Shown in pieces: positions 13,040 to 17,877 of a stretch of 24,511 nt of DNA (positions are counted from its first letter, which is position 1; the number at the start of each line of letters is the position of its first letter). Location of the stretch: IMG/VR virus record IMGVR_UViG_3300016464_000088, positions 1-24,511 of that record, one strand, 5' to 3'. The position numbers were made by a program, and so were the translations under genes. Source of the stretch: a virus (Duplodnaviria > Caudoviricetes). The notes beneath the pieces were generated by a model that was not told where the DNA came from, searched no databases, and saw nothing but the letters and a program-made list of their open reading frames with translations.

Positions 13040-13512
13040 TCTTGCACTTCAAATAGGTTGTGGAACACAGTGGTTCTGGTGTATTCTTCTGTTTGTTCAA
13101 CAATCACTTTGGGCATGGGCTTCTGGACTTTTTTAGCGTCCTCATTGGGGATGTCTAGATCGTGTATGCTATTCCAGACTTCACGGAAAGTGTTGATCAT
13201 GGCCCAGGCTATGCGTTTATTGGCTTTCTTGTCTAGAGCACGATCCGTGCTGTGGCGATCCTTCTTTAAGGCTGTGATGGCCCGCTCATAGTTGTTCTTG
13301 TGATAGGCTTTGACAGAGTCAGGTGCTGTGTCTATGACAGCACCAAATCCTGCCAACATGTCACTCCAATCTTGATTGTCCCAACGGTGTAGATAGCCAT
13401 CCCAGATCTGTCTGTTGTTGATGTCTATCTTCTTACCTGTGGTCTGTATGATGTTGTTCAGTGTTTCTGCTATAGAGCCTATGTGATCTAGGCCTCTTGC
13501 GATGTTTGCCAT
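13036..13512 (-). CDS. Hypothetical protein
   Basis: 158-aa ORF in the tightly packed minus-strand run; GGAG SD. Confidence 0.75.
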   Translation of the reverse strand: MANIARGLDHIGSIAETLNNIIQTTGKKIDINNRQIWDGYLHRWDNQDWSDMLAGFGAVIDTAPDSVKAYHKNNYERAITALKKDRHSTDRALDKKANKRIAWAMINTFREVWNSIHDLDIPNEDAKKVQKPMPKVIVEQTEEYTRTTVFHNLFEVQE

Positions 13513-13826
13513 TTACGCTTCTCCTGGTTTTCAAGTTTTTTGTATAGTCGCTGACGACGGATGTGATCTAATCTCAGTGTGCATGTGACATTGTTTCTGT
13601 GCCAAGCACCTTTGGGATCAGTTCTGGTTAGGCAGTATTGATTTGAAGCACGACCTTTGAGATGCCAATGATCCTGCCACAGCCATTGAAAATCCTCAAA
13701 TGTCAACTGCCAAGATTCTCCTCTGTATGAGGCCTGTGCTTTCATCTGTAGCCAAGCACAATACTGCTGGTGAGGGATTTCACCTTGGACTTTCCATACA
13801 TGAGGTCTAGATCCTGTTCTTGGCAT
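13488..13826 (-). CDS. HNH-like (His-Me finger) endonuclease-related protein
   Basis: A..RGESWQLTFEDF..LW...GR....YCLTR.D.KGAW...NV pattern resembles small phage HNH-like nucleases. Start reassigned to ATG 13826 (MPRTGSRP). Confidence 0.6.
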   Translation of the reverse strand: MPRTGSRPHVWKVQGEIPHQQYCAWLQMKAQASYRGESWQLTFEDFQWLWQDHWHLKGRASNQYCLTRTDPKGAWHRNNVTCTLRLDHIRRQRLYKKLENQEKRKWQTSQEA

Positions 13827-15473: not shown

Positions 15474-15502
15474 ATTATACGACTATTTTGGCTCCGTGTC
15501 AA
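15474..15502 (-). promoter_or_regulatory. Consensus sigma70 promoter
   Basis: TTGACA (15502-15497), 17 nt, TATAAT (15479-15474); perfect consensus. Confidence 0.9.
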
Positions 15503-16391: not shown

Positions 16392-16797
16392 GCCCAGTGA
16401 TATGTAATAAAATCCAACTTCACTGCGTTCAGTCGTCTTTTATTCCAATCACCTGAGTAAAAGCACTCATTTGAGACACAAACATTAGTTGACTTGAAAT
16501 GTGGAGTCAAGAGGGGACAAATGTAGTTTCTGAAACAAAAAAAATATTCTGCTTCTCACTACTTTTGTCCCTACCTCAACTACACAAATCAACTAATGTG
16601 TAAGTCCCATCTCTGGGGAGGTATCTTAGGCTGCTTTACGGAAGAAGTTTGGCTATGTTTAACTTCCAACCATCGCTGGTAGCAGTGGACTACACCCTAG
16701 TGACTTTATCCAAGATAACTTACAGTCACATTATTGGGCAGTGGAGGATATATCCCTATTATGAACTCCACCTTTATTGTTTCTACCATTAGGTAGT
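16375..16797 (-). ncRNA. Candidate large structured ncRNA or replication-origin region (~420 nt)
   Basis: Longest ORF-free gap in the window, tiled with hairpins including a ~118-nt stem-loop at 16482-16599 whose G-U pairs favour the minus strand. Confidence 0.65.
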
Positions 16798-17130
16798 AGG
16801 GTTCTGTGTTTTAGCCTGTTTAAGTTGTTTGATTTTCATTCTTGCCTGTTGTAGTTTAATGTTTTTGTGATGCCTGGTATTAGTGCCGTTGATTGCTATA
16901 TGTTGTAGTTTAGTTAAATGCTTGTGCCTTAAGGGCTGTTTTTGATTATAGACCCAGTGCCAGAAGCAGTCAAGACTCTGTTTGTTGCTTTTGGTAATAT
17001 CTTCCCAAAACTCTTCTTTGAGTCTAATCAATAATACTAAATCATCTGCACATGGATGAGATTCTAGGTCTTTGGCTTTGATGCCTCTCTGCCAACAGAA
17101 TAGATTGGTTTGGTGTTGAATAGATTTCAT
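16789..17130 (-). CDS. Hypothetical 113-aa basic protein, predicted sRNA-regulated
   Basis: Start reassigned to ATG 17130 behind the SD-like GAAAGGGA; Lys/His-rich C-terminus. Confidence 0.72.
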   Translation of the reverse strand: MKSIQHQTNLFCWQRGIKAKDLESHPCADDLVLLIRLKEEFWEDITKSNKQSLDCFWHWVYNQKQPLRHKHLTKLQHIAINGTNTRHHKNIKLQQARMKIKQLKQAKTQNPTT

Positions 17131-17175
17131 TGCGTCCCTTTCAAATACTTGCCATTGCCTGAATAGTTGCAAATG

Positions 17176-17182
17176 TATTTAG
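17176..17182 (-). promoter_or_regulatory. Late-promoter variant CTAAATA
   Basis: Intergenic, downstream of the terminator; predicted +1 at 17170. Confidence 0.55.
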
Positions 17183-17221
17183 CATAGACAAAAAAAAGTG
17201 TTTGAAAATAGACAGAATAGT

Positions 17222-17326
17222 CAAACGAAAGCCCCATGGCGGGGCTTTCTAACAGAGTTTGAAATGTTAGCAACTATTTCCAGGACATCCCTAAATGGCA
17301 AGAAAGGGACTAGGTAGAACTCTGCT
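17222..17326 (-). ncRNA. Candidate ~100-nt antisense-type sRNA
   Basis: Bounded by a CATAAATA promoter and an intrinsic terminator. 5' stem AGCAGAGUU/AACUCUGUU starts at the predicted +1; two internal hairpins; complementary to the minus-strand leader at 17134-17170. Confidence 0.72.
17223..17249 (-). terminator. Rho-independent terminator (possibly bidirectional)
   Basis: GAAAGCCCC-N5-GGGGCTTTC perfect 9-bp inverted repeat, followed by GTTT on the minus strand. Confidence 0.85.
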
Positions 17327-17331
17327 ATGTG

Positions 17332-17339
17332 TATTTATG
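17332..17339 (-). promoter_or_regulatory. T4-like late promoter CATAAATA
   Basis: Overlaps the stop of the ORF ending at 17335; predicted +1 (17326) is the first base of the sRNA stem. Confidence 0.65.
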
Positions 17340-17877
17340 TTTCTTTGTTTTTGTCGTGGTAAAAAGTGATGGTTTCTTGATCACTGTCCAAAATAGTTTT
17401 GGTCAACATGACTCGTTGGCGTTGTTGATTGCCCTGTGTGTTGTAGGCACCTTTGGTTTCACGCATAAAGTCATTGAATTTGATTGAAGCCGCTGAACCC
17501 TGTAGTTCAAATTTTCCATTAAATGGATTTTGAAACATACCACAGGTCACGCATTTTTGTCGCCAGGCTTTTTTGCTGTTCTTTTGGTGTAACTTCGCTT
17601 CTGTTTCACGACCGTTGGGGCAGGTTCTTCCACAGTCTGCACACTCACAGGCTGTTCGTTTGACTTGGGTGATCTGCGGAGGAAATGTAGGATTGGTTCC
17701 GTCAAACATTTCCAAAAAGACTTGTTCGTGTTCATCTTGATATAGTTCCTCTTTGGTTGGTCTTCCTGGTTTGCGGGGTCGTTTGGCATCCCCTGAAATG
17801 GTTCCAGTGACTGTTTTGGGTATGCGCCATTCCGCTACCTCTGTGAGTTTTTGTTTGAAAAGTTTGTCGTCCATCAA
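17335..17877 (-). CDS. Putative Zn-binding DNA-binding protein
   Basis: CECADCGRTC and CVTC cysteine clusters; AT-hook-like RPRKPGRP. Confidence 0.7.
   Translation of the reverse strand: MMDDKLFKQKLTEVAEWRIPKTVTGTISGDAKRPRKPGRPTKEELYQDEHEQVFLEMFDGTNPTFPPQITQVKRTACECADCGRTCPNGRETEAKLHQKNSKKAWRQKCVTCGMFQNPFNGKFELQGSAASIKFNDFMRETKGAYNTQGNQQRQRVMLTKTILDSDQETITFYHDKNKET

What the first reader, a model, noticed from the sequence alone, without database searches (positions are those of the whole stretch)
17128..17339. Tandem sRNA complementary to the leader and RBS of the next gene
Seen: an interrupted inverted repeat spanning a terminator: gtccctttc 17134-42 / gaaagggac 17302-10; cttgccatt 17148-56 / aatggcaag 17294-302; cctg 17158-61 / cagg 17281-84; aatagttgc 17162-70 / gcaactatt 17270-78. 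Each half has its own TAAATA promoter on the same strand. The upstream unit would make a ~100-nt terminated RNA whose hairpin loops expose UUCUUGCCAUUU and part of AAUAGUUGC. The downstream mRNA is predicted to start at 17170 (GCAACUAUU...), exactly where complementarity begins, and pairing covers its SD. Inference: a same-strand, trans-acting antisense repressor of the 113-aa ORF, like type I antitoxins or plasmid Rep copy-control RNAs, but driven by T4-like promoters.
Basis: partly seen in the sequence, partly recalled or inferred. Interest (0 to 1): 0.85.

Follow-up and report, generated by a model that had tools for sequence, protein, structure and literature searches.

The report
Phage sRNA that reads start codons
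A small freshwater phage and dozens of relatives share a gene for a predicted ~100-base folded RNA whose exposed loop matches the Met-Ala start (AUGGC) of the next transcript and of other non-structural genes, so it likely damps them by base-pairing once late transcription starts.

Summary
The complementarity is real and the upstream unit is a conserved small-RNA gene with no Rfam match. On the minus strand: promoter TAAATA (17332-37), +1 at 17326, closing stem, two hairpins, terminator (17249-27), second TAAATA, leader from 17170. The same unit occurs in 30 relatives found by DNA pattern and in 9 of 12 further phages found through the target protein. Stems covary around an invariant GCCAU loop, the complement of the Met-Ala start AUGGC. 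A variable arm tracks each phage's own leader 5' end and SD (0 of 4000 permutations). AATGGCAA opens 23 of 36 non-structural but 1 of 52 structural Met-Ala genes. It works like P1 C4 or P4 CI RNA but is not a member. No transcript was shown. The scan noted C4-like designs on other DNA, nothing on this family.

The parts
17335..17877 (-). 180-aa Cys-rich gene of unknown function; fixed upstream neighbour of the sRNA, its stop codon overlaps promoter A
   Evidence: family present upstream in 29 loci
17332..17337 (-). Promoter A, TAAATA (T4-late-type core); inferred +1 at 17326
   Evidence: AGCAG begins exactly 5 nt after TAAATA in the relatives (partly imposed by the search pattern, but also true of the four loci found by protein)
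17222..17326 (-). Predicted ~105-nt sRNA: closing stem 17326-18/17259-51, hairpin 1, hairpin 2, terminator
17287..17310 (-). Hairpin 1; loop 17304-17293 holds the invariant GCCAU (17299-17295), complement of AUGGC; its 5' stem strand is the anti-SD arm in this phage
17261..17284 (-). Hairpin 2 region; CCUG and AAUAGUUGC, complementary to leader nt 1-13 (variable, leader-tracking arm)
17222..17249 (-). Intrinsic-terminator-like hairpin with an imperfect U tract
   Evidence: stem covaries; not called by the consensus scan
17176..17181 (-). Promoter B, TAAATA; inferred +1 at 17170
17131..17170 (-). 40-nt target leader, with SD AAGGGA at 17140-17135
17141..17155 (-). 4-codon upstream ORF (Met-Ala-Ser-Ile-stop) whose AUGGCAAG start is what the invariant loop matches; out of frame with the 113-aa ORF
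16789..17130 (-). 113-aa basic, soluble, all-helical protein of an unnamed phage family
   Evidence: 97 representatives; pLDDT 95
16420..16790 (-). Conserved structured non-coding element at the 3' end of unit B; large RNA or origin-like element, no Rfam match
   Evidence: 22 of 71 pairs change on both sides in 4 sequences; z -4.0
13506..13515 (-). Candidate second target: 10-nt perfect loop complement over the start codon of the 158-aa non-structural gene (ATG 13512)

Best explanation
The unit at 17326-17222 is a conserved phage gene for a predicted ~105-nt structured RNA, likely made from a late TAAATA promoter, that would repress other phage transcripts in trans by base-pairing. Its invariant GCCAU loop would kiss Met-Ala starts (best AAUGGCAA) and its variable arm would grip the 5' end and SD of the phage's own unit-B leader. 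In this phage the kiss on the upstream ORF would zip into a ~30-bp duplex that buries the 5' end, the upstream AUG and the SD of the 113-aa gene; the 158-aa gene is a likely second target. The likely role is to cap or shut off the non-structural module (unit B with its large structured element, plus some sigma-70 early genes) as late transcription rises, while most virion genes escape because they start Met-Ala with GCU or GCC. Shown: sequence, conservation, covariation, start-codon bias. Inferred: transcription, pairing in vivo, repression, timing.
For: Family: 31 distinct units including the window (73 pattern hits, 35 distinct, 4 dropped for lacking TAAATA or terminator), plus 9 of 12 distinct phages reached through the target protein without any RNA pattern. 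Closing-stem pair G-C 16, A-U 10 of 26. Loop hairpin: 158 of 203 stem cells pair in 29 distinct hairpins against 90 expected, maximum 113 in 5000 shuffles; GCCAU unpaired at mean 0.89 against 0.45 overall, 33 of 35 at 0.8 or more. Variable arm against leader, 19 leader classes, loop masked: longest complement 6.13 against 5.04 +/- 0.25, coverage 9.0 against 5.1 +/- 0.8 nt, 0 of 4000 permutations, also without the window. Trans action: a sigma-70 cassette inserted between the units has a leader that matches its own phage's sRNA, 10 nt in L039, and three sites of 7, 6 and 7 nt in L081 where it lies on the opposite strand. Start bias: GCA as codon 2 in 30 of 36 non-structural against 11 of 52 structural Met-Ala genes; by family 13 of 17 against 4 of 15 (p 0.012); AATGGCAA 23 of 36 against 1 of 52, where base composition at other starts predicts about 5 in each class (my arithmetic). 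SD unpaired probability falls from 0.62 to 0.01 on co-folding.
Against: No transcript or interaction was observed. Whole-duplex energy barely separates cognate from non-cognate pairs in relatives (-22.6 against -21.1, window an outlier). Loop-flank covariation with the adjacent start is weak (6.82 against 6.60, 2% of permutations). Three distant units with a CGCCAU loop have no called ATGGCG start within about 6 kb, and L067 and L083 keep the loop though their unit-B gene starts AUGAAA, so own-genome targets do not explain all loop conservation. Structural counter-examples exist: the tail-tube gene starts ATGGCATAT in 4 of 5 complete relatives, the capsid gene ATGGCA in 2 of 5, one tail gene AATGGCAGTA. 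Starts were picked by script, classes by position with one family moved by hand, and the phages are related. In 17 of 30 loci the leader has no protein to repress.
Confidence: 0.68

Rival explanations
1. Cis occlusion as in T4 genes e, soc, 49 and I-TevI: transcripts that read through the weak terminator fold back on the leader and stay silent, and only transcripts from promoter B, which lack the upstream arm, are translated. No free RNA is needed.
For: A read-through RNA 17326-17100 folds at -62.1 kcal/mol, z -4.2, and buries the SD as well as the dimer does. The U tract is imperfect. The geometry (arm upstream of a late promoter) matches the T4 cases (PMC3014915, passages).
Against: It does not need a dedicated promoter, a closing stem that starts at +1, or a covarying terminator between the arms. 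In relatives the segments are not co-linear (loop lies 3' of the anti-5'-end arm), 360-nt inserts separate the units in L039, L047 and L081, and a matched leader lies on the opposite strand in L081. It may still act as a fail-safe alongside trans action.
Confidence: 0.12
2. RNA-level control of replication, as with P4 CI or ColE1 RNA I: the sRNA binds the nascent unit-B transcript and changes termination or the folding of the large structured element, which would serve as primer or origin; translation is secondary.
For: In 17 of 30 loci the leader has only a 4-45-codon TTG frame yet keeps the pairing and 3-4 GGCA copies in its first 75 nt. A conserved structured element follows. No replication gene was recognised among 49 ORFs of five complete relatives. 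P4 CI works this way (PMC4825925, passages).
Against: Nothing here shows the element is an origin; GC skew is uninformative. The invariant loop is the complement of a start codon, and the variable arm covers SD sequences in coding leaders. The start-codon bias at distant genes is not explained. The two mechanisms can coexist.
Confidence: 0.13
3. The loop's main target is outside the genome (Met-Ala mRNAs of a T4-like helper phage or of the host), or it is a protein-binding loop; only the variable arm acts on the phage's own leader.
For: Loop kept where no own target is seen. Five complete 30-32 kb relatives use TAAATA promoters but show no sigma-70 region 2 match and no polymerase, helicase, primase, integrase or lysin among 49 ORFs scanned. 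In T4 such promoters need phage gp55 (PMC3014915, passage). A satellite sRNA acting on both genomes is known (SviR, 10.1101/2022.04.08.487710, abstract).
Against: No helper or host is identified; many ORFs are unnamed and could supply these functions; the Pfam model may miss gp55-like proteins. Own-genome starts are strongly sorted by the loop complement. This extends rather than replaces the best explanation.
Confidence: 0.06
4. A DNA-level inverted repeat, or chance complementarity in an AT-rich spacer.
For: Several unrelated windows come within 1-4 kcal/mol of the cognate duplex.
Against: Shuffles never reach it; stems covary with G-U pairs on one strand; arms are permuted in relatives, which a cruciform would not tolerate.
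Confidence: 0.01

Closest known systems
C4 antisense RNA of phages P1/P7 (Rfam RF01695)
   Same: Small structured RNA encoded upstream on the same strand as its target; complementary segments in loops; pairs around a ribosome-binding site and blocks translation (PMC12197685, section 9 read).
   Different: No Rfam match. Own promoter and terminator, separate target promoter, T4-late-type promoters, no antirepressor target or sign of lysogeny; invariant loop reads a start codon; several targets. That C4 is processed from its target operon is recalled.
CI RNA of satellite phage P4
   Same: Same-strand antisense RNA in a small phage pairing with several short sites in a leader that controls replication genes (PMC4825925, passages); fits the non-coding leaders with repeated GGCA.
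   Different: CI is processed from the primary transcript and causes premature termination in lysogens; here a stand-alone unit, no integrase found, no sequence match.
T4 e / soc / 49 / I-TevI translation-initiation hairpins
   Same: Arm upstream of a late promoter pairs with the SD downstream; late-promoter transcripts lack it (PMC3014915, passages).
   Different: Those are local cis hairpins; here a promoter, closing stem and terminator define a separate RNA, and matches occur on the opposite strand and far away.
SviR of Vibrio cholerae PLE
   Same: Conserved trans-acting sRNA of a phage-dependent element with several targets (10.1101/2022.04.08.487710, abstract and outline seen).
   Different: PLE is an integrated satellite lacking a full virion module (recalled); these phages encode full heads and tails; helper dependence is unproven here.
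Type I antitoxins and plasmid copy-control RNAs (recalled: Sok, CopA, RNA I)
   Same: ~100-nt hairpin RNA, loop-initiated pairing, an upstream mini-ORF before the main gene as with tap-repA.
   Different: Mostly encoded on the opposite strand of their target; the protein here is neither a small hydrophobic toxin nor a recognisable Rep.

Membership tests
C4 antisense RNA (RF01695) | Match to the Rfam covariance model | tested here: not met
   No C4-type match at E <= 5 in the window or E <= 1 in 8 relatives
C4 antisense RNA (RF01695) | Same-strand RNA with loop-exposed segments complementary to a downstream RBS region | tested here: met
   (predicted structure and covariation)
C4 antisense RNA (RF01695) | Sits in a c4-icd-ant operon and controls an antirepressor | tested here: not met
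   Downstream genes match no Pfam or PHROG family and have their own promoter
P4 CI RNA | Processed from the leader it regulates; sites up- and downstream; causes premature termination | not testable with these tools
   Own promoter and terminator argue against processing; termination effect needs an assay
Type I toxin-antitoxin | Target encodes a small hydrophobic membrane toxin | tested here: not met
   113 aa, pI 9.9, GRAVY -0.93, best 19-residue hydropathy 0.37; soluble helical model; toxicity not tested
Plasmid Rep copy-control RNA | RNA encoded on the opposite strand, overlapping the target leader | tested here: not met
   Both units on the minus strand in tandem
Plasmid Rep copy-control RNA | Target is a replication initiator or primer RNA | tested here: inconclusive
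   No Rep match; structured element of unknown role follows
T4-type cis TIR hairpin | 5' arm upstream of a late promoter, pairing co-linearly with the SD, conserved as a cis hairpin | tested here: inconclusive
   Met in the window; not co-linear or on the opposite strand in relatives
Satellite sRNA (SviR-like) | Element depends on a helper phage and the RNA pairs with helper mRNAs | not testable with these tools
   No sigma or replication genes recognised; helper unknown
tRNA / tmRNA | ARAGORN call | tested here: not met
   0 genes in the window

The most novel reading that the evidence does not exclude
These phages run a start-codon address code: one late sRNA with an invariant anti-AUGGC loop silences a whole class of genes chosen by the synonymous second codon (GCA repressed, GCU/GCC spared), while a fast-evolving arm locks it to each phage's own unit-B leader. 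If the phages borrow late transcription from a T4-like helper, the same loop could also throttle the helper's Met-Ala mRNAs.
Probability: 0.35. Interest if true: 0.9.

Novelty: new variant of a known kind. Interest (0 to 1): 0.74.

Why it matters
Few trans-acting sRNAs are described from apparently non-integrating phages. Here a family has a defined promoter, covarying structure and targets predictable from sequence, so it can be tested at once with reporters. If the start-codon sorting holds, a synonymous codon at position 2 would decide membership of a regulon, a simple way to switch off non-structural genes in a phage with no recognised repressor or sigma factor. It also points to an overlooked group of 30-kb freshwater phages that use T4-late-type promoters without a recognised gp55, and to an unlisted ~350-nt structured element under this control.

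Tried and rejected
Rfam on the window and 8 relatives: nothing relevant. ARAGORN: none. GenBank phages: no match for the sRNA region or the 180-aa protein. The 113-aa protein alone found no viral loci and one distant homologue by word search; the ESM Atlas gave only sub-threshold hits; Foldseek PDB nothing at E <= 0.001 and VIA-align best Z 6.8, a generic helical bundle. One freshwater metatranscriptome holds pieces of this phage as contigs (17339-17575, 17588-17784 and others) but none over the sRNA or unit B; short RNAs and low depth make this uninformative. Whole-duplex energy was a poor test of covariation because the arms are not co-linear in relatives. The test that CGCCAU or GACAU loops go with ATGGCG or ATGTCA starts failed. 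GC skew shows no origin. Large ORFs that replace the structured element in L043, L046, L054, L064 match no family; a polymerase-like look of two of them is my impression only. A likeness of a motif at the element's 3' end to primosome assembly sites is recalled and was not confirmed by a paper search. Literature: searches (listings) showed no description of this RNA or phage group; five short motifs were absent from 6 supplementary files of PMC10690425, but 3 files could not be searched, so it may be among that paper's unnamed candidates. Earlier scan notes: none on this genome or look-alikes.

Full report
Setting. The window is a 24.5-kb linear virus record of a small tailed phage with all genes on the minus strand: terminase, portal, capsid and endonuclease VII were named by PHROGs. 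TAAATA occurs 11 times on the coding strand and never on the other. In the window plus five complete relatives it occurs 74 times on the coding strand against 18, and 14 of the 74 are followed exactly 5 nt later by an ORF-opening ATG, with at most 2 at any other spacing. This marks TAAATA as a promoter core with +1 at the sixth base (inference), resembling the T4 late promoter that needs gp55 (PMC3014915, passages).

Observation. The predicted RNA 17326-17222 folds into a closing stem, two hairpins and a terminator (z -3.4). Its duplex with the leader is -41.8 kcal/mol and no shuffle of 2000 reaches it. With the 78-nt body alone the leader ranks first of 9,725 windows, though only by 1 kcal/mol. 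Co-folding drops the unpaired probability of the SD from 0.62 to 0.01; the main AUG stays open.

A family. The upstream 180-aa protein gave four relatives that all keep promoter A, RNA, terminator and promoter B. Pattern scans then gave 28, 8 and 37 loci; 73 pattern hits collapse to 35 distinct units, of which 4 without TAAATA or terminator were dropped, leaving 31 with the window. The closing stem has one pair that is G-C in 16 and A-U in 10 of 26 sequences, and the terminator stem covaries. As an independent route, an alignment of the target protein gave 19 loci, 16 of them new and 12 distinct; 9 of the 12 carry a TAAATA-started, stem-closed RNA with a GCCAU loop, several with quite different closing stems, one group has a GACAU variant and two have none in range. 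Across 29 distinct hairpins the five loop bases GCCAU are invariant while the stem changes freely: 158 of 203 cells pair against 90 expected (relatedness can inflate this). The loop is predicted open in 33 of 35 units. No Rfam family matches.

What it pairs with. GCCAU is the complement of AUGGC, a Met-Ala start; TGGC lies in the first 45 nt of unit B in 33 of 37 loci. With that loop masked, the rest of the RNA tracks its own leader: over 19 leader classes the longest complement is 6.13 nt against 5.04 +/- 0.25 for permuted partners and coverage 9.0 against 5.1 nt, 0 of 4000 permutations, and the result holds without the window (unit ends for nine loci were set by hand). The matches fall on the 5' end and SD, for example 8 nt in L082 and 9 nt in L067. 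In relatives the loop lies 3' of this arm, so the pairing is not one helix and whole-duplex energies barely discriminate (-22.6 against -21.1); the window has the two hairpins in swapped order, which makes its duplex co-linear and unusually strong. Covariation of the loop flanks with the adjacent start is weak, although the window shows a compensatory C-G there.

Trans, and more than one target. A sigma-70 cassette is inserted between the units in L039, L047 and L081. Its leader matches the resident sRNA: 10 nt just after the -10 box in L039, and three sites including the start codon in L081, where the cassette lies on the opposite strand and cannot fold back in cis. In the window the only other ATGGCA gene start, the 158-aa gene at 13512, carries a 10-nt perfect loop complement. 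Over 27 loci (four near-duplicates and the 180-aa family left out, one tail family moved by hand), Met-Ala genes use GCA at codon 2 in 30 of 36 non-structural against 11 of 52 structural cases; by family 13 of 17 against 4 of 15 (p 0.012); AATGGCAA 23 of 36 against 1 of 52. Ala codons in gene bodies are 40% GCA in both classes, and composition at other starts predicts about 5 per class (arithmetic). Against this: tail-tube genes start ATGGCATAT in 4 of 5 complete relatives and capsid genes ATGGCA in 2 of 5; three units with a CGCCAU loop have no matching start nearby; starts were chosen by script.

Unit B. The next gene varies: 11 of 30 loci have a long ATG-Ala ORF (113-aa family, a 125-aa family or others), 17 have only a 4-45-codon TTG-GCA frame with 3-4 GGCA copies, one starts AUGAAA, and the window has the mini-ORF. 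The 113-aa protein is real (97 representatives; confident helical model; like four uncultured-phage proteins) but has no named family or fold and no hydrophobic segment. It is followed by a conserved structured non-coding element, 16420-16790 (22 of 71 pairs covary in 4 sequences; z -4.0). Five complete relatives show no sigma-70 region 2, and 49 ORFs I selected from them gave no polymerase, helicase, primase, integrase or lysin, so unit B may matter for replication and the phages may lean on a helper; neither is shown.

Mechanism. Most likely (0.68) a late trans-acting antisense RNA: loop kiss on Met-Ala starts, arm on the cognate 5' end and SD, repression of the non-structural module as late transcription rises. 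Rivals: control of termination or folding of the unit-B RNA (0.13), which fits the non-coding leaders and can coexist; T4-type cis occlusion by read-through (0.12); a mainly external or protein target for the loop (0.06).

Comparison. It works like P1 C4 (PMC12197685, section 9) and P4 CI (PMC4825925, passages) but fails membership by Rfam and gene context. It is not a type I antitoxin. I found no description in ten paper searches (listings only); PMC2864571 was seen as passages; three supplementary files of PMC10690425 could not be searched and may list it unnamed. Verdict: a new variant of a known kind, interest 0.74, with no transcript evidence yet.

Noticed in passing
window 16420-16790 (-): Conserved ~350-nt structured non-coding element with many covarying helices and a U-rich internal loop; other sequence types fill the same slot in relatives, often followed by a GIY-YIG (SegE-like) gene. 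No Rfam match. Large RNA or origin-like element.
   Followed up: partly
window 12732, 13033, 13832 (-) and relatives: TAAATA followed 5 nt later by ATG: leaderless mRNAs from T4-late-type promoters (14 of 74 sites).
   Followed up: partly
G001-G005 (L095-L104): Complete 30-32 kb genomes with full head and tail modules but no recognised sigma factor, replication, integration or lysis enzyme; possible dependence on a T4-like helper.
   Followed up: partly
window 17141-17155 (-): The mini-ORF resembles the first and last bases of the 125-aa gene that precedes the 113-aa homologue in L037, L067 and L076, so it may be a deletion stump.
   Followed up: no
window 17236-17240 (-): The terminator loop is also GCCAU here and similar in L009 and L033, but not in most relatives.
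   Followed up: no
L046:10791-11807, L064:7820-9526, L054:10763-11461, L043:8078-9414: Large unnamed ORFs replace the structured element in unit B of some relatives; candidates for alternative replication proteins.
   Followed up: partly
L039, L047, L081 between the two TAAATA promoters: A ~360-nt mobile sigma-70 cassette with a short coiled-coil-like gene, in either orientation, whose leader matches the resident sRNA.
   Followed up: yes
window 15474-15502 and 16945-16973 (-): A perfect sigma-70 consensus promoter before the small early genes, and an 11 of 12 match inside the 113-aa ORF that could transcribe the structured element separately.
   Followed up: no
L053:7610-7738, L071:9956-10086: An unrelated element with AGCAGGGTTC...GAACCCTGCTAG inverted ends in two other viruses, one beside a tRNA-like gene; dropped as outside the family.
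   Followed up: no
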